From sequence record MH494197.1: a stretch of DNA of 64,000 nt. One strand, 5' to 3'. The DNA comes from Escherichia phage CMSTMSU. Made by a program: the position numbers and the translations under genes. Position 1 is the stretch's first letter. Each line of letters begins with the position of its first letter. The notes under the pieces are model-generated. The model did not search any database. It was given only the letters and a program-made list of their open reading frames with translations, and had not been told where the DNA came from. This document shows positions 37,652 to 55,050 of this stretch, in pieces.

Positions 37652-38325
37652 TTATACCCCAATTAGTGGGATACCTGTTATGTTAAGTAGAACAGATGCT
37701 TGAAGCTTAACTGACTCACCTGCCGAAAGGTTGTTTACTATACCATCGACGCGGAACCCTAAGTTTTTATTAGAGTTGAGAGAGTTAATCACCCAGTTTT
37801 CGTAATCCGCTTTTGTAATACCATTCGGATTTGGGAGAGTTGGATCAACATCATTAATTACCATAGAAACATCCCAATTCGGGCGACTACTTGTAATTAC
37901 ATCCTTGATTGATTCTAGTTGTGTAATGCGACGTGGATCTGGAATCTGACTTGCACCAATTGAACCGAAAAATGTACCTTGGTTATCAACATAGAACTGA
38001 CCTTTAATGAAAAATGTTTTGAATTATACGGAAGAGAAACAATTTCACCTGATGAATCACTAACTTCACGAATCATAATTTTCAATTCATAAAAATAGTT
38101 ACTACCAAATTCAAACACACCAGTACCATTTGTGAATGTTGTCCAGTTATTTGAATCAACCTGTGAAGTACCACCCATATTGAAGTACGCTAATGGCTTA
38201 GTACTGTTACTTTGTGTAAATTCAATATATTTCTTACCTGTATCATAGTTGATATCAAGTAGTGTTGAGTACTCTTTATTTTCTGGACGAGATGTTTGAA
38301 TTTCACGCCATTCTTTATTTTTCAT
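37652..38325 (-). CDS. Hypothetical virion/fiber-associated protein, frame-broken
   Basis: ORFs 37915..38325 and 37652..37864 joined by one frame break; TAATG overlap with upstream gene. Confidence 0.4.
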
Positions 38326-38745
38326 TAGGACACGAAGGAATCACCATTACTGGTAAGAACCATACGACCCATAATACTATTTTCACCATCTGGTACTGTG
38401 TTGAAAATTGAAATCATTGGGATAGATGCCCAGTCAGCTTCAGATGCAGTATCTACTGGCTGACGAGCATTATCAACTAATGCAAGAAGTAGTTCGCCAG
38501 TGTTGCCAGTATTTCTGTACCAAATCTGACCATTAACGTTACCACGAGGTGCAGTAGCTCCACTGAAGTTCTCAACCAAGTGGAGGAAGTTTTCGTTCCA
38601 TGCTTGACCGTAACCAACTTTATTTCGACCTGCAAAGTTTAACGGTACTGGGTTACTACCGTTGGTTTGGTCCTAATATTACGTTATTTGGAATGGTAGC
38701 ATAAACGCTACCATTACTTCTATAAATTGTATAACTTACACTCAT
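38325..38745 (-). CDS. Hypothetical protein (about 140 codons), frame-broken
   Basis: MSVSYTIYRSNGSVYATIPNNVI... joins ORF 38325..38579 (NENFLHLVENFSGATAPRGNVNGQIWYRNTG). Confidence 0.4.
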
Positions 38746-38757
38746 ATCATCACCTTA

Positions 38758-39363
38758 TTATTGTAGTTGGACACGAACTGTGTATTTGATTTGCAAAACA
38801 CGGTTAGCACTTTTCTCAACTGGGTGAAAAATAATATGGGTAAGTGGAATACCGCTATCACCATTTGTATATAAACCCAATTCGTCAAATACATATGTCC
38901 CATCCATGCTAGTACCAGAGCTAACACCTTGGTCAGATGGCTCACCTAAACCTAATGTGCAAATACAGACGATATCAGTGTAAGCTTGGCACGGAATGTG
39001 AACAGTTGTAATGTTGTTATATTGTGAATCAATACCAGCAGAGATACGTGGGTTGATTTTTTCAGATAAGTCTGAGAATATAGACCACCGAAAGAAGTAA
39101 CGCGTGGTTTCTTGTATGTGATACGACCAGTACTCAAAACTACTGTTCCACCATTACCAAAACGCATCTCACTAATAGATCCAATAGGAATACCAGTACT
39201 ATCTTGATTATAAGCCAACGCATTAGCAATAGCAGTACTCATATTTTCAGGGTGAATTGCGTTTGATTTATCCAAAACGATTTTTGGTTAGATGGATCAG
39301 TAACGTCAGTAATTAGTACATGACCCTTAACAAATAGTTTTGGTTGTTCTGTTTCTAATTTCA
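38758..39363 (-). CDS. Hypothetical protein (about 200 codons), frame-broken
   Basis: MKLETEQPKLF... joins ORF 38952..39275 and a C-terminal frame ending QIKYTVRVQLQ. Confidence 0.4.
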
Positions 39364-39408: not shown

Positions 39409-39870
39409 CTAAACTTTTTGTACATCAGATGGATACTTGCTAATGTAATCACGGTCAATACCGACTTTCAGATAGGTAAAGTTTCCGGTTAAGGTTTCAG
39501 CGAATGTACCAGTTGTACCTTGTTCTCTAATAAGGTCACCGCCATTTGGGTTAAGAATGACATTATCAGTAAATTCAAGATAGAAGTTGCAGCTTTCGGT
39601 AAATTTAATTGGGAACCAATCATCGTCAGATGGATTACTTGCCAGTGTAGCGAGTACGTAAATTCTACCAATGAAGTTACGTAGGGTAAAGGATATTGTA
39701 TGTAATCCTGTAGTACTACCATAATAGCCGCCACTAGCTAATGGTAATGTTTGTTCGTTCCAATGATAATCTAAGTTAGCAGGATACCAGCTATCTGATT
39801 CAGGAAATTCTTGCCATGAACCATCTTTAGTTTTTCTTTTGAAGAGGAAGTCTTTTGATCTTAATGCCAT
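39409..39870 (-). CDS. Hypothetical protein, 153 aa, intact
   Basis: ORF 39409..39870; AAAAGGG SD; TAAATA core on minus strand in divergent intergenic region 39871..39979. Confidence 0.5.
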   Translation of the reverse strand: MALRSKDFLFKRKTKDGSWQEFPESDSWYPANLDYHWNEQTLPLASGGYYGSTTGLHTISFTLRNFIGRIYVLATLASNPSDDDWFPIKFTESCNFYLEFTDNVILNPNGGDLIREQGTTGTFAETLTGNFTYLKVGIDRDYISKYPSDVQKV

Positions 39871-39979: not shown

Positions 39980-41105
39980 ATGACAATTTCATTCAACAAT
40001 GGGTCAGGTGGTTCATGTAATAATTCTGGCATCAAAAGTTTAGTTATTAACGCTGCTGGACATTTAATTGTAACCTATTCCGACAATACAATCCAAGACC
40101 TAGGTCTAGTGGTTGGACAAAATGGTGCTAACGGTAGAAACTTTTATCCAAATGAGATAGGTTTTGAAGTTCCTAATGAACTCTTCCGTGTTGGTGAAGA
40201 ACTAGGGTGGTGTTATCTTAGTCTTGCAAACGGCACTAGTACTTTATATTTTAAATCAAACGATGCCCAAGAAACAATTAGTACTTGGAACCGTGTAGAG
40301 TTTGGTAAAGGTGATACTGGTGAAGCTGGTAAACCATTCCACATTGACAGTTCTGGTACGGCGTTTCCAACAACTGGTCTTTTCGATAATTACACATTCT
40401 ATAATACTGAAGATGGTAAATTATATTTCTATCAAAGCGTAACTGCAACATGGAGTGATGGTATTCCTTTCCGTGGTGAACAAGGTCTACGTGGTCGTTT
40501 CCATATTGATAGTACTGGTAGTCAATTCCCAAGCATTGATAATCTACCACAAGATTATTGCTTCTATAACACGACAGATGGTAATTTGTATTATGTCGAT
40601 ATCGTAACTACATCATCAACCCCAACTAAAGAGTGGAGTGCTGGTATCTTATTCCGTGGAAAAGACGGTGAAGAAGGTAAGCAAGGTGAACAAGGTATTC
40701 AGGGTGAACGGTAAAGATACAGTTGTTATCATCAACACTATTGATCATTCATGGACTAACGCATTGTTAGTTATTGGTACATGCCCTGCTGGATACCTAG
40801 TAACTAATATCGAAGTTGATATTAACCAAGCATATGATGAACCAGTAAATGAAATGTTTGTACGTTTCGGTGGTGAAGCACAAGAAGATATTGGTGGTAC
40901 TGTAATTGCACCTGTTGATTATTTCGATATCAACCGCAAAATGCGTTACATTGTTAACGAAACCAACCACGAAGTATCAAGTAAAGATGAAATCATTTCT
41001 TGTGTATTCAATGATTCCGTAAACAACAGTTCATTTGGTGAAATGAAGATCGTTTGTACTTTATCATGGCAAGCACCTATTCAGCCTATTCAAGATAACA
41101 TTTAA
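39980..41105 (+). CDS. Fiber-like protein with internally duplicated module and short collagen-like G-X-Y run
   Basis: Two copies of FHID..G..FP...Y.FYNT.DG.LY...FRGEQG; GKDGEEGKQGEQGIQGE; joined to ORF 40638..41105 by one frame break; AAGGGA SD before ATG 39980. Confidence 0.5.
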
Positions 41106-41116
41106 AGAGGGTTGAT

Positions 41117-43207
41117 AAATGGCAGTTTTTCCAATTTAGAAGGGACCATGATGCCAACATTCAAGTTGGGTAAACGTGGTGCTTCTATTAATTTTGTAAA
41201 CGATTCTGTCGCAATCAAAGACTTTTAGGCGAAACGTTCCTACCTGTTAAGGTGGGAACTCCTAATGACGATGATTCCGCAGTAAACGTTAGGTATCTTG
41301 AAGATAACCCAAATGCTTTATTTGGCGTACTTCCACCAACAAATGACATTGGTAAAAATAACAACACTTATTTTCAAGTTGATTCTGAGGGTATTGTTGA
41401 TATCTTTGCAAAACAAATGATGTTTGGGTAAAATCATTATACATTAATAAAAATGTCCTTTCCAGTGTTAACGGTGCTGATTATATCGGACTTATTACTG
41501 GAGGAACACTTCAACAGGCACAGTTTTACATAACACCAGAAGAGTTTGGTGCAAAGGTGATGGCATCACTGATGACACGGCGGCGTTAACGCATGTGCAG
41601 TTTATGCTAAAGAACACAAAATCCAAATTCAAGCTGGTGGTAATTATCGTATCAGAACTGCTGTTTATTTGAATGATATTCAATGGTTTGGTGGTACAAT
41701 CACTGGTAACGGTGGCACAATGGTATCGGTACTGAATAGTACAATCCAACAAGCAACATTAACAGGATGTTATTTAAAATTCTTTGGTGGTAATGGTAAA
41801 TTTTATTTTAATAAATTTATTAATATTACAAGTACTGCTGCATTTCTAATGCAAGGTATGACTGAATCAGGTACTATCGACTTCTGCTTTAATGAAATGA
41901 CACAATGTAAGTACGGTGTTCTTCAGCAAGGCACTGGTGAAAAATGACAGTTGGGCGTTATTCATACAACCACATCCATGATATATATGGTGATGCAATT
42001 GAATTGAACGTAGTCAACTCACATTACCCAGACGGATTTGTAATAGAAGGCAACTTGATTGAAAACGTAGATGGTACAAATGCACCAATTCCTCTTTCAA
42101 ACTGGGGTATTGGTATCGGTGTTGCAGGTTCTGGTCCTTATGATGTGAATGCTGATGATTCACAATATGTAAAAAATTCGTTATAAAAATAACCGCTTGT
42201 ACAATGTCCGTCAATGTATTCACGTTGAGTTGGGTAAAGACTTTAAAATTCTCAATAATGAAGTTTATCCATCAACGTTGGTATCAATTGGTACTGGTTT
42301 GACAACCGCTGGTGTAATTACTTATGGTTCTGTTGATTTTATTATTGATGGCCTATCTGGGCATCTATTAAATGATCCATCAGTAACTAACCGTATGGTT
42401 TCTATTAACTGGGGCGTAACATCTGGTAAATTTGCTGGTCCTCCACGAAACTTTAAATTATGTAATCTCCACATTCCTGAGTCGTCTATTATTGTGTATA
42501 CTTCAGGCTCTGATAATTGGCTAAATACTACTGAACTTTCTAATATTACATGTAGTAGAATTCAATGGCGTGGATTGCCGTCATCTTCCAAGTTTAATAA
42601 TATCAGTACTAAAGAACTTGATGTTATTGGACAACACCTTGCAACTGAAGGTGAAGGAGGGGCTTATATACTCGCTCTAAATATACATATACCAACTGGA
42701 CTAATTGTGTTGTTCAAGATGATTGTAACATATCAAAATATAGTTTCTCAAGAATGTATGTTGACCGTATTGACCAATCATCTAATAACTTTAAAGTAAC
42801 CACTGCAATTGATGGAACGGGTCATCGTGGACCTGTAGTAATACCTGTAGTTGAACAGTATTACGTGCCTTATGATGTTTTTCCGGTGGGAGATATTTCC
42901 CAACAGGAACAATTATCCATAAACAATCAGGTGGAAAATTTATTGTTACAGTAGGTGGTTCTTTCTTTGGTCGATATGACACAATTAGACAAACAGTTGC
43001 AGGACAAACTTATATCGAAGCATTGGGTGTATCATGGGGTGATAATCAATATGCTAAAGCTGCTGGAACCGAAATCCTAATCACAGGAGCAGGGGAAAAT
43101 GGCGAAGATTTAAAACATATATCACTAGAGCAGTTTATGTTGTTAATAATGCGTATCGTATCGATATTGCCGATCCGATTGTTACTGCTACCGCAGCAGG
43201 GCATTAT
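41117..43207 (+). CDS. Tail fiber/tailspike with pectate-lyase-type beta-helix (depolymerase-like) motif; frame-broken
   Basis: PEEFGAKGDGITDDTAAL motif typical of right-handed beta-helix polysaccharide depolymerases; N-terminus MAVFSNLEGTM restored by one homopolymer correction. Confidence 0.5.
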
Positions 43208-43262
43208 TGAAAGCTGCTCAACCAATAACATATATCACCCTATCTTAAAGGAGATTATAAAA

Positions 43263-49347: not shown

Positions 49348-52300
49348 ATGTACTCGATTAAAACGGATCTTGATGTATCTGGTAATTCCACGGTAGGTAA
49401 GGATCTTTTGGTCAAAGGTAATGCAGTATTCAGTAATGACCTAACGGTTAATGGGGAAGTGTCTTTTGCTAACGCAGTATTCACTGCAATTACCGCTGGT
49501 TCTGTGAATGTCACAGGTGCATTGGATGTTGCTGGTAAGGCAACCTTATCCGGTGGTGCTGATGTTTCAGGTGCTGCGACATTTGCAGGAAACATTACTG
49601 CTGCTGACGGCACAACTGCAAAATTTGATAACTTAGAAGCTAATTCAGGATCATTTAATTCTGTTGAATCAACTGATATTACTTCAACTGGCACAGCAAC
49701 TTTTAAAGATGTAAACATTTCTGGTACACTTGGTGGTACTTTTAATCTTTCTGATATTAATGCTACAACACTTAATGTGTCTGGTGCTTCAGCACTAACT
49801 GGTTCAGTCACATTGGGTGCAAATATCACTGGTCTTGCAAGTACTGCAAACTTCCGTGATATTCGTATCGGGCCTAATGAAGAAGGTCAAGCATATAGAC
49901 TAAACTTTGGTTACACCGTTCGGACAACGACCAACCGTTCTTCTACAGAACGAAGTTCAATCCGAACTAATGTCTCCTGCTAAGTTGAATGTTCTACAAA
50001 CTGCAACATTTGGTGATTCTTCACTTTCAACTTACGGTATTACAGGTAATGGTTTAAACAAATTAGATTATGTAACTATTTCTGGTAACGCAATTCAATC
50101 ACCAACCACTCCTTTACTTGAAGTAACTAAAGGTAAAACTAAAGTTGTTGATTTAGAAGTGACTGGCGTAGCAACTATTCCTAATATCGAAAGTTCTGGT
50201 ACTGCAAACTTTAACAACATCAACGTATCTGGTACTATTGGTGGTAGTTTTGATTTAGATGATATCCAAGCAACAACATTATCAGTATCCGGTGCTTCAG
50301 CACTAACTGGTGCAGTTACATTGGGTGCAAACATCACTGGTCTAGCAAGTACTGCAACATTCAAAGCAATCAATTTGGGTCAAAATACCGCTGATGCTAA
50401 CGTTAAGCTAGGTTTTGCATATACTGCACCTAGTGCACGTCCAACAGTCTTGTTAGCAAACGAAGTTCAATCTGAACTAATGTCTCCTGCTAAGTTGAAC
50501 GTTCTACAAACTGCAACCTTCGGTTCTGCTGCACTATCTACCTATGGTATTACTGGTAATGGTCTAAACAAATTAGATTATCTAACAATTACTGGTAACG
50601 CAACACAAAACCCTGCTACTCCACAACTTCAAGTTGGTGGTAAAGCAATTCTTAATGATGTTGAATTTACAGGTACTGTAACTGGCCTAACTGTTGATGT
50701 GAGTGGACAAGATCTAACTCCTAAATCAGTAGTTGCTGCTGAAGCAATCAAAGGTCAAACTCTTGAATCAGTTGGTCAAACAACTGTAGGTTCATCTCTA
50801 CAAGTTGGTGGTACTGCAACTGTTACTGGTGCATTATCTGCTGCCGCTGGTACTTTCAGTGGTGATGTTAGTGGTTCTAAAGGTATCTTCAGTGATAGCG
50901 TATCCGGTACAAGTGCAACCTTTACTGGGGATGTTAGCGGTGATAACGCAACCTTTAGTGGCGATTTATCTGCTGTAGCTGGCACTTTCAGTGGTGATGT
51001 AACCGTAACTGGTCAAACAATCACTGTTAAAGACTTGGTAGTAACTGGAACTTCAACTGGTGTAACTGCAATCGCTGACGTTGACGGTCTTGATATTGCT
51101 CCAAACAAAGTTGATGTTACAACAACTCTATCTGTTGCTGGTGAATCAACTCTTGCTGGTGTTACAGCAACTTCAATCAATAGTACTGGTGCAATTGCAG
51201 GTACTGCAATTTCTGGCTCTACTATTACAGCAACTGGTGAAATTTCTGGTGCATCATCTGTAGTAACTGGTCTTTCTAAATCTGGTAGCGTTGAAACTGG
51301 TGCTCTAAAGGCATCTTCTGTTGAAACTGCAATCATTAGCAACACTGCTGGTGTGTCAATAACAAACAACACTTCAATTGCAGGTAATCTATCTGTAACT
51401 GGAACTGTTACCCCGTGCAATTGACCTAAGTACTACTGATATTGATGCTAAGTCTCTAACAACTACTGAAGGTGCTAACATTGGTGGTGACCTAGTTGTT
51501 GCAGGTACAGTTGATCTAAGTGCTGCTGACGTTGCTGTTAAATCTCTAACCAGTACTGGTGCAGTTATTAGTTCTGAAGGTACAGTAAGTAGTGTTCTAC
51601 CTAAACTTTCCAGTACTGAAGCTAATATTACCACAGTAACTGCAACCACTGCAAATGCTACCACACTAAATGTAACTGGTACATCAACTCTAGCTGGTGT
51701 TAACGCTTCTGGTGCTATTACTTCTGCAACTAACATTACCGCTACTGGTGTATTAAAGGTGCATCTGTTGAAACTGCGTCAATCAGCAATGCTGATGGTG
51801 TAGCAATTAACAATAACACTACAATCACTGGTAATTTGGACGTATCTGGGACATTGACCCGTGCAATTGACCTAAGTACTACTGATATTAGTTCTAAGTC
51901 TCTAACCACAACTGAAGGTGCTACAATTGGTGGCGATCTTGTGGTAGCAGGTACTGTTGATCTAAGTGCTGCTGATGTGTCGGTGAAATCTCTTGCAAGT
52001 GCAGAGACAATTACAAGTGCTGGTGTTATTACAGTTTCGGATACAGTGAATTCTAGCACTCTACCAAAACTAATTACTACTGATGCAACTATTGGTGCTG
52101 TCCATGCAGCTACTATTGAAACAACTGGTTCAAGTACACTAAAACAAGTATCTGCTACTGAAGTAACAGCTACAAGTATTGTACTAAATTCAGTTGGTGA
52201 AGGTTTACGTGTTGACAATAATGCAAACATTAATGGTATATTAAGTGTTAATAATATTACTTCTACCAATGATACTATTGCAATTGCGAAAAGTGCTGCT

Positions 52301-55050
52301 ATTACTGGTGATCTGACCGTATCTGGAACTGTTACCCCGGTGCAATTGACCTAAGTACTACCGATATTAGTTCTAAATCCTAAGTACTACTGAAGGTGCT
52401 ACAATTGGTGGTGACCTAGTTGTTAATGGTTCAATTGATTTAAGTTCTTCCAATGTTTCAGCAATTACCCTTGCTAGTTCTGGTAATACTACCGTTGGTG
52501 GTAACCTAGTACTAACAACTGGTGTTGTGACTGGCAGCCCATCTGTATCTGGTAACCTTTCAGTTGCAGGTACTGCGGCAGTAACTGGTGCAACTACCTA
52601 ACTGATATCGTAAATATCGGTAAGAAAGTAACTGTAAGCACTGGTGGTATTCAAGTAGTTGCAGGTGGTATTAATACCGACGCTATATTAGTATCCGGTG
52701 ATACAACTTTAAACAACACTACTGTAAACACTACCTTAAATGTAACTGGTCAAAGTACAGTTGCTGCACTAAGTGCTGCATCTTTGAATGTATCTGGTGA
52801 TAGTACTGTTCAAAACTAACAGTTGAAGGTGAATTGGTTCCACAAGGTGGTATCGACCTAACTGGTGCAGATATTTCTGCTAATAGTCTTGCAACTGCTT
52901 CAACAATCACTGCAACTGGACTAAGCACACTAAGTGGTGGTGTAAGTACTACTAATGTTACTGCATCTGGTACAGTGAATGCTGGTAGTTTGGATGTTAC
53001 TAACAACGCAACCGTTGGTGGTAATTTGGGTGTAACTGGTTCATTAACTTCTGGACCATTGAGTGTAACAGGCATTGCGAATATTACTGGTGTAACAACT
53101 GTTGGTTCATTGGTTTCCGGTGCTGTATCTGGTAGTACTGGTACATTTAGTTCAACATTAGGTGTAACTGGTGCAGCTACATTTGACAATGACGTAACTG
53201 TTGAAGGTGTATTCACCCCAGCAGGTGGTTTAGACCTAACAACTTCTGATATTACAGCTAAGAGTTTGTCAGTATCTGAAACTATTCACTCTGATGGTGC
53301 AGCTTCCTTTGGTGGTAACACAACAGTAGGTGGTACATTGGGTGTAACTGGTGCAGTAACTGCTCCATCGGCAACCCTAAGCGGTACTGGTACTGCACTA
53401 GCAGTAACTAATAATGCAACTATTGGTGGTACATTGGGTGTAACTGGTCAAGCAACACTTGGTTCTATAGTAACTTCTGGTGTATCTGCAACAAGTGGCT
53501 CTTTCAGTACTACTCTTGGCGTTACTGGTGCTGCGACATTTGGAAACGATGTAACTGTAGTTGGAACACTAACTCCGGTAGCTTAGATCTAACTGGTGCA
53601 GATATCTCTGCTAAAACACTAACTCTATCTGAAACATTAAATGCGACAGGTAATACTACCCTTGGTGGAACATTAGGTGTAACTGGTTTAGCAACAATTG
53701 GTGGAACACTAACGTCTGGTGCAGTAACTGCTCCATCTGCAACCTTGAATGGTTCAGGAACTGGTCTAGCAGTAACTAACAACGCAACCGTTGGTGGTAC
53801 ATTAGGTGTAGTTGGTCAAACAACACTAGGTTCTGTTAAAACTGGTGCAACTCTAACAGTTGGTACACCATTAGGTGAGCAGCCTGAAACTGTACAGATT
53901 ATGCCAGACACTTATATTGCTGGTAAACTACGTGTTGAGGGTGGTATTAACGCAGATATCGATGTTGGTGGACAAACACTAGAACCGTTTGCAGTAATAG
54001 CATCTGATTCTTTATCTTCTGCTGGTAATATTACTGCTGGTGCGGCAATTATTTCAAGTTCTGCAACAATTGGTGAAGTCGGTTCACAAAACAACAACCT
54101 AATCGTTAATGGTAACGTTGTAAACAACGGTAACTTCACTGTTACTGGTGTACTAAATGCACAATTGAACCAAGCAGATTCCGATGTAGCTGTTAAGTCT
54201 TTGACTGCAACTAACAACGTAGCTGCTGGAACCACATTAAGTGCAGGTACTGCAATTACTGCTGGTACTTCCATCACTGCAACTGGATTACTTAAAGGTA
54301 ATACTTTATTACTACTACTGGTTCATTTGGTGGTGCAGTAACTATGTCAAGTGGTGCAAACATCACTGGTACAGTGGGTATTACTGCTGGTAACCTAACA
54401 GTGGGTGGTGATATCTCTGCAACTGGCACTGCTGGATTCGGTGCAACAACCGTTTCTACAATTACAACATCAGGTTTGGCTACACTTGCAAGTACATCCG
54501 TTACTGGTAACGCAACAGTAGGTGGAACACTAGCAGTAACAGGAGCACTAACTGCGAATGGTAACGTAACATTAGGTGACGCAGCGGCTGACGTTCTAAC
54601 CGTTAATGCAACTTCATCATTTAAAGAAAATGCTGTGTTTGATAAGGCAGTAACAGTAACTGGTGAACTAACCACTACTAATGCTAACTTAACTACTACA
54701 ACAGTAACTACCAAAAGTATGATGTAATCCCAACTCAAGTTACATCATCAGTAATTGCTCCAACCGGAACATGGACTCCAGATGGTACAAGTAACGTGTA
54801 CTTCATCACTCTAGACCAAGATACCACGTTGGCTCCAATTACTGGCCTAATTGGTGGCGGTAAAGCTGCATCAGTATACATCTATGTTAAACAAGATACA
54901 ACTGGTAACAGAAACTTTACAACTGATGGTACTTATGCTGTTGTTGATGGTGAACTAAACAAAACTGCTGGTAGCGTGACCATTTACCAAGTAATTTATG
55001 ATGGTGTAAGTCCAGTTACTGATTTGTTCATTGCACAACGTACTGCTTAA
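49348..55050 (+). CDS. Giant repetitive fiber protein B (about 1900 codons), paralog of fiber A, frame-broken
   Basis: ORFs 49306..49983, 49907..51424, 51836..52354, 52834..53586, 53745..54341, 54344..54727, 54796..55050 chain; AGGAGGGA SD; starts MYSIKTDLD; ends ...VIYDGVSPVTDLFIAQRTA. Confidence 0.6.

What the first reader, a model, noticed from the sequence alone, without database searches (positions are those of the whole stretch)
39980..41105. Fiber-like protein with an internal duplicated module and collagen-like G-X-Y run
Two copies of an about 60-residue module (FHID..G..FP...Y.FYNT.DG.LY...FRGEQG) are followed by GKDGEEGKQGEQGIQGE, suggesting a trimeric fiber with a short collagen-like segment.
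Basis: seen in the sequence. Interest (0 to 1): 0.35.

Follow-up and report, generated by a model that had tools for sequence, protein, structure and literature searches.

The report
Collagen-like segmented phage fibre gene
This is one ordinary virion fibre gene of a giant E. coli phage, with repeated small modules, short collagen-like stretches and a globular end; it looks split in two only because of a nanopore sequencing error.

Summary
Window 39980-41105 (+) is a single gene. It is the ortholog of 121Q gp574, phAPEC6 gp253, CBB_228 and RaK2 gp062, and belongs to PHROG 13565 "tail protein".

In this window the gene is broken by a 2-bp deletion after 40709. The deletion lies inside a CCAGG (Dcm) site. 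The window carries about 180 such deletions, in homopolymers and at CCWGG sites. The two fragments (244 and 133 aa) are identical to proteins deposited for phage CMSTMSU, a MinION-only draft genome. Repairing the frame gives a 375-aa protein 100% identical to that of phage EC.P1, and lengthens the G-X-Y run from 6 to 7 triplets.

The two modules are truly homologous (hhalign E 2.5e-20). A possible third, diverged copy precedes them. Every module is followed by exactly three G-X-Y triplets. The C-terminus is a confident jelly-roll knob.

A syntenic metagenomic ortholog has 62 collagen triplets in place of the two modules, which supports a trimeric shaft. Orthologs were detected in virions by mass spectrometry in phAPEC6 (65.6% coverage) and CBB (44%).

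Trimerisation, and which fibre on the virion this is, remain inferred. This is an ordinary but undescribed member of the collagen-like phage fibres. Interest is low.

The parts
39980..41105 (+). Whole gene: a 375-aa virion fibre-like protein once the 2-bp deletion is repaired. Ortholog of 121Q gp574, phAPEC6 gp253, CBB_228 and RaK2 gp062.
   Evidence: Alignment to vB_Ec-M-J EcMJ_309 and 121Q gp574. The corrected protein is 100% identical to the EC.P1 protein. PHROG 13565 match, E 3.9e-213.
40709..40710 (+). Site of the 2-bp deletion: 'CA' is missing between these two bases, inside a CCAGG Dcm site. It creates a false stop at 40712-40714 and splits the gene into ORFs of 244 aa and 133 aa.
   Evidence: Fragments identical to CMSTMSU AXC39366.1 and AXC39367.1. 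CMSTMSU is a MinION/Albacore/Canu draft, with no polishing step mentioned in the announcement.
40019..40114 (+). N-terminal beta-hairpin unit (residues 14-45, IKSLVINAAGHLIVTYSDNTIQDLGLVVG). It is the most conserved part of the protein and the likely virion-attachment end.
   Evidence: Mean identity 0.77 across orthologs. Strands at 18-23, 28-33 and 38-43 in the model. The same unit is repeated in many unrelated collagen-like proteins. It is retained in P0056, which has a different C-terminus.
40115..40141 (+). G-X-Y segment 1 (residues 46-54, GQNGANGRN; 3 triplets).
   Evidence: Conserved in nearly all orthologs.
40142..40303 (+). Module R0 (residues 55-108). A possible third, strongly diverged copy of the R module.
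   Evidence: Same four-strand pattern and pLDDT of about 86-90. Profile comparison is not significant without the flanks (E 0.026 and 0.32). Weakly bridged by the P0071 module (z 4.7 to R0, z 13 to R1).
40310..40336 (+). G-X-Y segment 2 (residues 111-119, GDTGEAGKP; 3 triplets).
40337..40471 (+). Module R1 (residues 120-164, FHIDSSGTAFP...YTFYNTEDGKLYFY...WSDGIPF).
   Evidence: pLDDT about 90.
40475..40501 (+). G-X-Y segment 3 (residues 166-174, GEQGLRGRF; 3 triplets).
40499..40657 (+). Module R2 (residues 174-226, FHIDSTGSQFP...YCFYNTTDGNLYYV...WSAGILF).
   Evidence: pLDDT about 89.
40658..40718 (+). Collagen-like run (residues 227-247, GKDGEEGKQGEQGIQGEPGKD; 7 triplets after repair). The sequencing deletion lies inside it.
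   Evidence: Orthologs have 6-7 triplets or 3+3 triplets, and 62 triplets in P0057.
40719..41102 (+). C-terminal jelly-roll knob (residues 248-375).

Best explanation
Shown. The region is one gene for a 375-aa virion structural protein of an Asteriusvirus (121Q/PBECO4-like) jumbo coliphage. It appears as two ORFs only because the sequence is an unpolished nanopore-type assembly. A 2-bp deletion fell in a Dcm-methylated CCAGG site within the collagen-like run.

Shown or predicted. The protein is a segmented fibre with this order of parts:
- a conserved N-terminal beta-hairpin unit;
- three small four-stranded beta modules, each followed by exactly three G-X-Y triplets. R1 and R2 are clear duplicates; R0 is a probable diverged copy;
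- a 7-triplet collagen-like stalk rich in charged residues;
- a C-terminal jelly-roll knob.

Inferred mechanism.
- Three chains associate in parallel.
- The jelly-roll knob trimerises and sets the register.
- The adjacent G-X-Y stalk and the short G-X-Y linkers then zip into short triple-helical segments, which string the beta modules into a rod of roughly 30 nm.
- The conserved N-terminus anchors the rod to the baseplate or tail-fibre apparatus, and the knob is distal.

Most tentative step. This could be the short knobbed baseplate fibre, about 29 nm long, seen by EM on CBB and phAPEC6.
For: Single gene and artefact.
- Relatives have an intact 1128-nt or 1116-nt CDS, and the window lacks 'CA' in GAACCAGGT.
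- Against EC.P1, window 1-49691 has 181 deletion events: 120 in homopolymers of 4 or more bases and 30 at CCWGG.
- 28 of 34 CCWGG sites in EC.P1 carry a deletion in the window, and no intact CCWGG site remains there.
- The two fragments exactly equal CMSTMSU proteins AXC39366.1 and AXC39367.1.
- CMSTMSU was sequenced on MinION only, base-called with Albacore and assembled with Canu (PMC6256653).

Architecture.
- AF2 model with mean pLDDT 77.9. The modules score about 86-90, the C-terminal domain above 90, and the G-X-Y segments are low.
- The G-X-Y positions are conserved in 55 orthologs of 353-387 aa.
- R1/R2 homology.

Trimer and shaft.
- The syntenic ortholog P0057 has 62 G-X-Y triplets (Pfam Collagen E 3.2e-34) in place of R1-R2.
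- The C-terminal domain resembles phage capsid cement proteins (the KHP40 entry is titled trimeric) and, more weakly, a TNF ligand.
- BFVD neighbours are named collagen-repeat, C1q-domain and tail-fiber phage proteins.

N-terminal anchor.
- The N-terminus is the most conserved part.
- The syntenic variant P0056 keeps residues 1-113 with a different C-terminus.

Virion protein.
- phAPEC6 gp253: 14 unique peptides, 65.6% coverage.
- CBB_228: 13 peptides, 44% coverage.

Short-fibre idea.
- CBB baseplate fibres measure 28.6 +/- 2.7 nm including terminal globules.
- RaK2 gp062 was not detected by MS, and no short fibres were seen on RaK2.
Against: - The Pfam Collagen hit is below threshold (16.8 against 27.2 bits).
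- The run has only one proline.
- Three-triplet linkers are too short to be stable triple helices on their own.
- The linked-trimer AF2 model was low confidence, with the collagen segments at pLDDT below 50.
- No homolog has a solved structure.
- The C-terminal domain is well conserved across phages of different host genera (mean identity 0.64). That is unusual for a host-specific receptor-binding tip.
- Sequence coverage in phAPEC6 is as high as for the capsid and sheath proteins. This would suit a higher-copy component better than 18 copies per virion.
- The phAPEC6 authors assigned the baseplate fibres to other proteins (gp248, gp256, gp314).
- The 30-nm length is my own rough estimate, made without model coordinates.
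Confidence: 0.7

Rival explanations
1. It is a high-copy decoration or 'hair' component. The jelly-roll domain would bind the capsid or tail-sheath surface as phage cement proteins do, and the rest would project outward as part of the whiskers seen on phAPEC6 and CBB.
For: - MS coverage in phAPEC6 (65.6%) equals that of the capsid and sheath proteins.
- The protein was detected in the two 'hairy' phages but not in RaK2.
- The proteins forming the hairs are unassigned in both papers.
Against: - The gene lies in the tail/baseplate/fibre block, not the head block.
- CBB hairs are 119 nm long, about four times the length I estimate for this protein.
- The protein is also encoded by phages not reported as hairy, such as RaK2 and GAP32. 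The CBB authors expected hair genes to be absent from GAP32.
- The usual fibre polarity and the P0056 variant point to N-terminal attachment.
- Jelly rolls are very common folds, and sequence identity to the cement proteins is only 6-15%.
Confidence: 0.15
2. The G-X-Y stretches are only flexible glycine-rich linkers between independently folding beta domains. The protein would not form a collagen triple helix and need not be a trimer.
For: - The Collagen match is sub-threshold.
- There are only 3 triplets between modules and only one proline.
- Each module is predicted with high confidence in a monomer model.
- Some orthologs interrupt the long run with two extra residues, giving 3+3 triplets.
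- The trimer model was inconclusive.
Against: - The Gly periodicity is strictly conserved at all four sites over 55 orthologs while the X and Y residues vary. This argues for a structural constraint on register, not mere flexibility.
- P0057 replaces the modules with 62 perfect triplets.
- Charged, Pro-poor triplets are typical of bacterial collagen-like proteins (established knowledge of Scl1/Scl2; weak NCBIfam SclB match).
Confidence: 0.15
3. The split is biological: either two genes (244 aa plus 133 aa) or a programmed +1 frameshift that produces both a truncated and a full-length product.
For: As it stands, the window has a stop at 40712-40714 and a downstream frame with a possible GTG start. 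The two pieces are deposited as separate proteins.
Against: - All 71 related phage records have one uninterrupted reading frame across the site.
- The gap is a 2-bp loss inside CCAGG, and every CCWGG site in the window is damaged in the same way.
- The source record is an unpolished MinION assembly.
- The break falls in the middle of a conserved G-X-Y run.
Confidence: 0.02

Closest known systems
Orthologs in Rak2-like jumbo phages: phAPEC6 gp253, CBB_228, 121Q gp574, RaK2 gp062 (ORF062w), GAP32_222 (PHROG 13565 'tail protein')
   Same: - Full-length homology, from 43% to 100% identity.
- Same synteny.
- Same four G-X-Y sites and the same modules.
- Virion-associated by MS in phAPEC6 and CBB.
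   Different: Nothing biological differs. The window copy only carries a 2-bp sequencing deletion. None of the papers I read describes the collagen-like or modular architecture: 'collagen' does not occur in the phAPEC6, CBB or RaK2 2013 papers, and no paper in the library combines Asteriusvirus with collagen.
Collagen-stalk plus jelly-roll-head trimers: C1q, Bacillus anthracis BclA, phage PRD1 spike P5 (comparison from established knowledge, not tested by sequence)
   Same: The order of parts is the same: a G-X-Y stalk followed directly by a C-terminal jelly-roll globular domain that could act as the trimerisation and registration domain. BFVD neighbours include a 'C1q domain containing protein' and 'Collagen triple helix repeat' phage proteins.
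   Different: - No sequence match to C1q or TNF families.
- The stalk is very short (7 triplets), and the shaft is interrupted by beta modules.
Phage capsid cement/decoration proteins (Ralstonia phage GP4 8h89_J, H. pylori phage KHP40 gp16 7dou_4, cyanophage Pam1 7eel_H)
   Different: - Identity is 6-15%.
- Those proteins are stand-alone capsid binders with no fibre shaft.
- This gene is in the tail-fibre block.
Bacterial and phage collagen-like proteins with charged, proline-poor triplets (Streptococcus Scl1/Scl2; Pfam PF01391)
   Same: G-X-Y periodicity with K, E, D and Q in the X and Y positions. Weak hits to PF01391 and to NCBIfam SclB.
   Different: The run is far shorter, scores below the curated cut-offs, and has no LPXTG anchor.

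Membership tests
PHROG 13565 / Rak2-like jumbo-phage 'tail protein' family (121Q gp574, phAPEC6 gp253) | Full-length sequence homology | tested here: met
   E 3.9e-213 over residues 1-375 of 375. 100% identity to the EC.P1 protein and 81% to 121Q and phAPEC6.
PHROG 13565 / Rak2-like jumbo-phage 'tail protein' family (121Q gp574, phAPEC6 gp253) | Conserved genomic position: after the gp15-like gene, NUDIX and three minus-strand structural genes, and before the tailspike and fibre genes | tested here: met
   Same order in vB_Ec-M-J, 121Q, phAPEC6, CBB, RaK2 and two metagenomic contigs.
PHROG 13565 / Rak2-like jumbo-phage 'tail protein' family (121Q gp574, phAPEC6 gp253) | Presence in the virion | not testable with these tools
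   Published MS detects the orthologs in phAPEC6 (65.6% coverage) and CBB (44%) but not in RaK2. No data exist for this phage.
Collagen triple helix repeat (Pfam PF01391) | Uninterrupted G-X-Y repeats beyond chance | tested here: met
   7 triplets at residues 227-247, with 0 of 20000 shuffles reaching a run that long. Four runs of 3 or more triplets occurred in only 5 of 20000 shuffles. The Gly positions are conserved.
Collagen triple helix repeat (Pfam PF01391) | Score at or above the Pfam gathering threshold | tested here: not met
   16.8 bits against 27.2. The distant ortholog P0057 does pass, at 116.9 bits.
Collagen triple helix repeat (Pfam PF01391) | Three chains forming a triple helix | tested here: inconclusive
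   Linked-trimer AF2 run: mean pLDDT 57.6, with the G-X-Y segments below 50. No coordinates or contacts were available to me.
C1q/TNF-like headed collagenous trimers (C1q, BclA, PRD1 P5) | C-terminal jelly-roll globular head directly after the collagen-like stalk | tested here: met
C1q/TNF-like headed collagenous trimers (C1q, BclA, PRD1 P5) | Sequence membership in the C1q or TNF domain families | tested here: not met
   No Pfam, NCBIfam or PDB sequence hit to C1q or TNF.
Programmed frameshift / two-gene locus | The frame break is conserved in related genomes | tested here: not met
   All relatives are intact. The break is a 2-bp loss in a CCAGG site, part of a window-wide error pattern.

The most novel reading that the evidence does not exclude
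The protein is the hitherto unassigned short, knobbed baseplate fibre (about 29 nm) of hairy Rak2-like jumbo phages. On this reading it is built on an undescribed 'beads on a collagen string' principle: very short (3-triplet) triple-helical connectors, held in register by a C-terminal jelly-roll trimer, alternate with small beta modules. These beta modules would be evolutionarily interchangeable with plain collagen, as in ortholog P0057.
Probability: 0.2. Interest if true: 0.4.

Novelty: new member of a known kind. Interest (0 to 1): 0.2.

Why it matters
- Biology. It gives a concrete, testable architecture for an abundant but uncharacterised virion protein that is conserved, one copy per genome, in all 71 Rak2-like jumbo phage records found. 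These include therapy candidates against E. coli and Klebsiella.
- Module family. The two beta units (the hairpin unit and the R module), interleaved with G-X-Y triplets, gave no match in my Pfam scans of this protein and ten distant relatives, yet they recur in hundreds of uncharacterised proteins.
- Data quality. The window, and the public CMSTMSU record it matches, is riddled with nanopore homopolymer and Dcm-site deletions. Any ORF-level oddity in this window should be checked against polished relatives first. The two fragments of this gene already sit in public protein and structure databases as separate proteins.

Tried and rejected
- Self-BLAST of the whole protein returned only the identity hit. 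I replaced it with segment-wise Smith-Waterman alignment with shuffles.
- R0 as a third copy. Pairwise scores were not significant (z 0.1-0.4). hhalign with G-X-Y flanks gave E 1e-4 to R2, but without flanks E 0.026 and 0.32. The R1+R2 HMM does not find R0. Only a transitive link through the P0071 module and the shared strand pattern remain, so I call R0 'possible'.
- PDB sequence search found only noise, E 0.11 or worse.
- NCBIfam gave only a 12.7-bit SclB hit.
- Linked-trimer AlphaFold hack (residues 164-375 three times, joined by 40-residue GS linkers, 13-row alignment): low confidence and uninformative.
- HMM searches for further copies of the hairpin, R0, R1/R2 or C-terminal-domain modules in all six frames of the window found none outside this gene.
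- Programmed frameshift or two genes: rejected.
- I considered that the gene might encode the 119-nm hairs. I rejected this as the main reading on length and phyletic distribution.

Full report
**What is at the coordinates.**
The window region 39980-41105 (+) starts at an ATG and ends at a TAA. These are exactly the limits of a single CDS in related phages. As it stands, the window has two ORFs here:
- 39980-40714, 244 aa, ending ...GKQGEQGIQGER*;
- a +1-frame continuation to 41105.

Megablast places the window in the Asteriusvirus jumbo coliphages, the 121Q/PBECO4 group. Identity is 99.2-99.4% to EC.P1, WPEC5, fEgEco12 and vB_Ec-M-J, and about 82% to 121Q and phAPEC6. In those genomes the gene is one CDS of 1128 nt (EcMJ_309 'tail fiber protein') or 1116 nt (121Q gp574 'tail protein / structural protein').

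**The frame break is a sequencing artefact.**
- The three-way alignment shows a single difference that matters: relatives read GAACCAGGT and the window reads GAAC--GGT after 40709.
- Against EC.P1, window 1-49691 carries 181 deletion events. Of these, 120 lie in homopolymers of 4 or more bases and 30 at CCWGG.
- 28 of the 34 CCWGG sites of EC.P1 carry a deletion in the window, and not one intact CCWGG remains there.
- The missing 'CA' lies in a CCAGG site. Homopolymer loss plus Dcm-site errors is the known signature of early nanopore base-calling (established knowledge).
- The two fragments (244 aa and 133 aa) are letter-for-letter the proteins AXC39366.1 and AXC39367.1 of Escherichia phage CMSTMSU. 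The same two pieces appear as separate entries in BFVD.
- The CMSTMSU announcement states MinION sequencing, Albacore 2.1.3 and a Canu assembly. It mentions no polishing (PMC6256653).
- Inserting 'CA' gives a 375-aa protein that is 100% identical to the EC.P1 protein.
Its own refutation criterion is not met, because correction lengthens the G-X-Y run from 6 to 7 triplets.

**Checking the observation.**
Duplication:
- R1 (residues 120-164) against R2 (residues 174-226) gives a Smith-Waterman score of 107. The shuffle mean is 25, z = 15, and 0 of 2000 shuffles reach that score.
- Profile-profile comparison on the orthologs gives E 2.5e-20 with the Gly-rich flanks removed.
- The repeat is still visible in the DNA at 71-75% identity, with 165-183 nt spacing.
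- Both copies are present in every ortholog from Escherichia, Klebsiella, Cronobacter, Erwinia, Yersinia, Serratia, Salmonella, Pectobacterium and Xanthomonas phages. The duplication is therefore old.

G-X-Y run:
- GKDGEEGKQGEQGIQGEPGKD occupies residues 227-247.
- No run of 7 or more triplets occurred in 20000 shuffles. Four runs of 3 or more triplets occurred in only 5 of 20000.

- There are four G-X-Y segments: residues 46-54, 111-119 and 166-174 (three triplets each) and 227-247 (seven triplets). Their positions are conserved across 55 orthologs of 353-387 aa, while the X and Y residues vary.
- The AlphaFold2 model (57-row alignment, mean pLDDT 77.9) is a string of compact units joined by low-confidence G-X-Y segments:
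  - an N-terminal three-strand hairpin unit (residues 17-43);
  - R0 (55-108), R1 (120-164) and R2 (174-226), each a small four-stranded unit with pLDDT of about 86-90;
  - a C-terminal all-beta domain (248-375, pLDDT above 90).
- R0 has the same strand order and the same 'module then three triplets' context. Its homology to R1 and R2 is not demonstrable directly. It is only weakly bridged by a related module in P0071 (z 4.7 to R0, z 13 to R1). I treat it as a possible third copy.

**The C-terminal domain.**
- Foldseek agrees and adds the Bacillus exosporium proteins BxpB and ExsFA.
- In BFVD the neighbours beyond the orthologs are named 'Collagen triple helix repeat', 'C1q domain containing protein', 'Tail fiber protein' and 'Collagen-like protein with Phage Tail Collar Domain'.
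- At the sequence level there is no Pfam domain except a sub-threshold Collagen hit (16.8 against 27.2 bits). There is also no homolog with a solved structure.

**Evidence from relatives.**
- An exhaustive HMMER search found 269 proteins at E of 0.001 or better. Beyond the orthologs, most match only the N-terminal hairpin unit (residues ~7-56) or the R1 module.
- In those proteins the two units recur, up to 16 times, interleaved with G-X-Y triplets (P0063, P0068, P0071, P0066, P0074). Pfam scans of ten of them gave only Collagen or Collar domains and nothing covering these units.
- Two metagenomic variants sit at exactly the syntenic position, after the ClpB-like gene, the gp15-like gene, NUDIX and three minus-strand genes:
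  - P0057 keeps the N-terminus, R0 and the C-terminal domain but replaces R1-R2 with 62 uninterrupted G-X-Y triplets (Pfam Collagen E 3.2e-34). A collagen helix of that length is an obligate trimer (established knowledge). This is the best available argument that the family is trimeric and that the beta modules lie in line with a triple-helical shaft.
  - P0056 keeps residues 1-113 (73% identical) and has an unrelated C-terminus with a weak DUF4376 hit. Together with the N-terminus being the most conserved segment (mean identity 0.77), this suggests the N-terminus is the virion anchor and the rest is exchangeable, as in other phage fibres.

**Virion evidence from the literature.**
- phAPEC6 gp253 (locus tag) was found by ESI-MS/MS with 14 unique peptides and 65.6% coverage. 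That is comparable to the major head protein (74.9%) and the sheath (68.0%), and far above the annotated fibre proteins at 13-16% (PMC7247149).
- CBB_228 was found with 13 peptides and 44% coverage (PMC5259590).
- RaK2 gp062 was predicted to be structural but was not detected (PMC3622015).
- None of these papers mentions collagen-like sequence in this protein. No paper in the library combines Asteriusvirus with collagen.

**Most likely mechanism (inference).**
Three parallel chains are registered by the jelly-roll knob. The neighbouring 7-triplet stalk and the three 3-triplet connectors form short triple-helical segments, and the beta modules pack around the three-fold axis.

I estimate the rod length as follows:
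- 48 G-X-Y residues at 0.286 nm per residue give about 14 nm;
- each of the three modules and the hairpin unit adds about 2.5-3 nm;
- the knob adds about 4-5 nm.

The total is roughly 30 nm. This is my estimate and was not measured on coordinates.

CBB has six short baseplate fibres of 28.6 +/- 2.7 nm with terminal globules, and phAPEC6 shows six short fibres. In RaK2 the protein was not detected, and no short fibres were seen. The match is suggestive but circumstantial, for three reasons:
- the high MS coverage would suit a higher-copy component;
- the phAPEC6 authors assigned the baseplate fibres to other proteins;
- the knob is well conserved across host genera, which suggests a conserved ligand or a virion partner rather than a strain-specific receptor.

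**Rivals.**
- A capsid or sheath decoration ('hair') role is suggested by the cement-like fold and the MS abundance. It is disfavoured by gene position, by the 119-nm hair length, and by the gene's presence in phages not reported as hairy.
- The G-X-Y stretches could be mere flexible linkers in a non-collagenous protein. This is disfavoured by the strict conservation of Gly register and by P0057, but it is not excluded, because my trimer model failed.
- A genuine two-gene or programmed-frameshift locus is excluded for practical purposes.

**Verdict.**
- The fibre interpretation is reasonable and partly backed by published proteomics.
- The trimeric collagen-like nature is inferred, not shown.
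- The gene is an already catalogued, MS-verified structural gene of a well-sampled phage clade. Its modular collagen-like architecture appears undescribed but belongs to a known kind (collagen-like phage fibres with a globular head).
- Interest is low, at 0.2. The main practical lesson is the poor quality of the underlying sequence.

Noticed in passing
window 1-49691 (whole window): Systematic small deletions relative to EC.P1: 181 events, mostly single bases in A/T or G/C homopolymers and 2-bp losses at CCWGG. No intact CCWGG site is left. Most long genes are therefore chopped into short ORFs. For example, the 9972-nt gene of EC.P1 (L004 22172-32143) appears as many pieces between roughly 22.1 and 32 kb of the window.
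   Followed up: yes
window 41120-43260 (+): The downstream 'colanic acid-degrading protein / colanidase tailspike' gene is one 2142-nt CDS in 121Q and EC.P1. In the window it is split into at least five ORFs by the same kind of deletions (for example at 41125, 41222, 41409, 41552, 41584, 41940, 42170, 42184, 42658 and 42884). In vB_Ec-M-J it is also annotated as two CDSs.
   Followed up: partly
window 49672-54529 versus L004 45056-49009: Secondary BLAST matches of 72-83% identity link the region after about 49.7 kb to the preceding long tail-fibre gene. This suggests tandem paralogous fibre genes.
   Followed up: no
L008 6001-6813 (protein P0056) and L007 6001-7251 (protein P0057): Two metagenomic Rak2-like phages carry variants at the syntenic position. 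One has the same first 113 residues fused to an unrelated C-terminus (weak DUF4376 hit). The other has 62 collagen triplets in place of modules R1-R2. This points to modular exchange within this fibre gene.
   Followed up: partly
proteins P0063, P0066, P0068, P0071, P0074, P0080: A hairpin unit of about 35 residues (consensus roughly GI.s..in..GhLivtysDGt..d.G.v.G) alternates with G-X-Y triplets, up to 16 times per protein. It occurs in many uncharacterised bacterial and phage proteins, and no Pfam family matched it in my scans.
   Followed up: partly
cluster of the protein: Identical or near-identical 375-aa proteins are filed under Escherichia coli assemblies (WP_433175651.1, WP_210765412.1 and others, on contigs up to 360 kb). 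One 105-aa partial copy is filed under Actinomadura adrarensis. Jumbo-phage genomes are evidently present in, or contaminate, bacterial assemblies.
   Followed up: no
window 39409-39870 (-) and 37915-39275 (-): The three minus-strand genes upstream are orthologs of 121Q gp575-577, phAPEC6 gp250c-252c and CBB_229-231. They are conserved next to this gene in every relative examined. Two of the three were detected by MS in each of phAPEC6 (gp250c, gp251c) and CBB (CBB_230, CBB_231); the third was not in the MS lists I saw. In the window they too are fragmented by deletions.
   Followed up: partly
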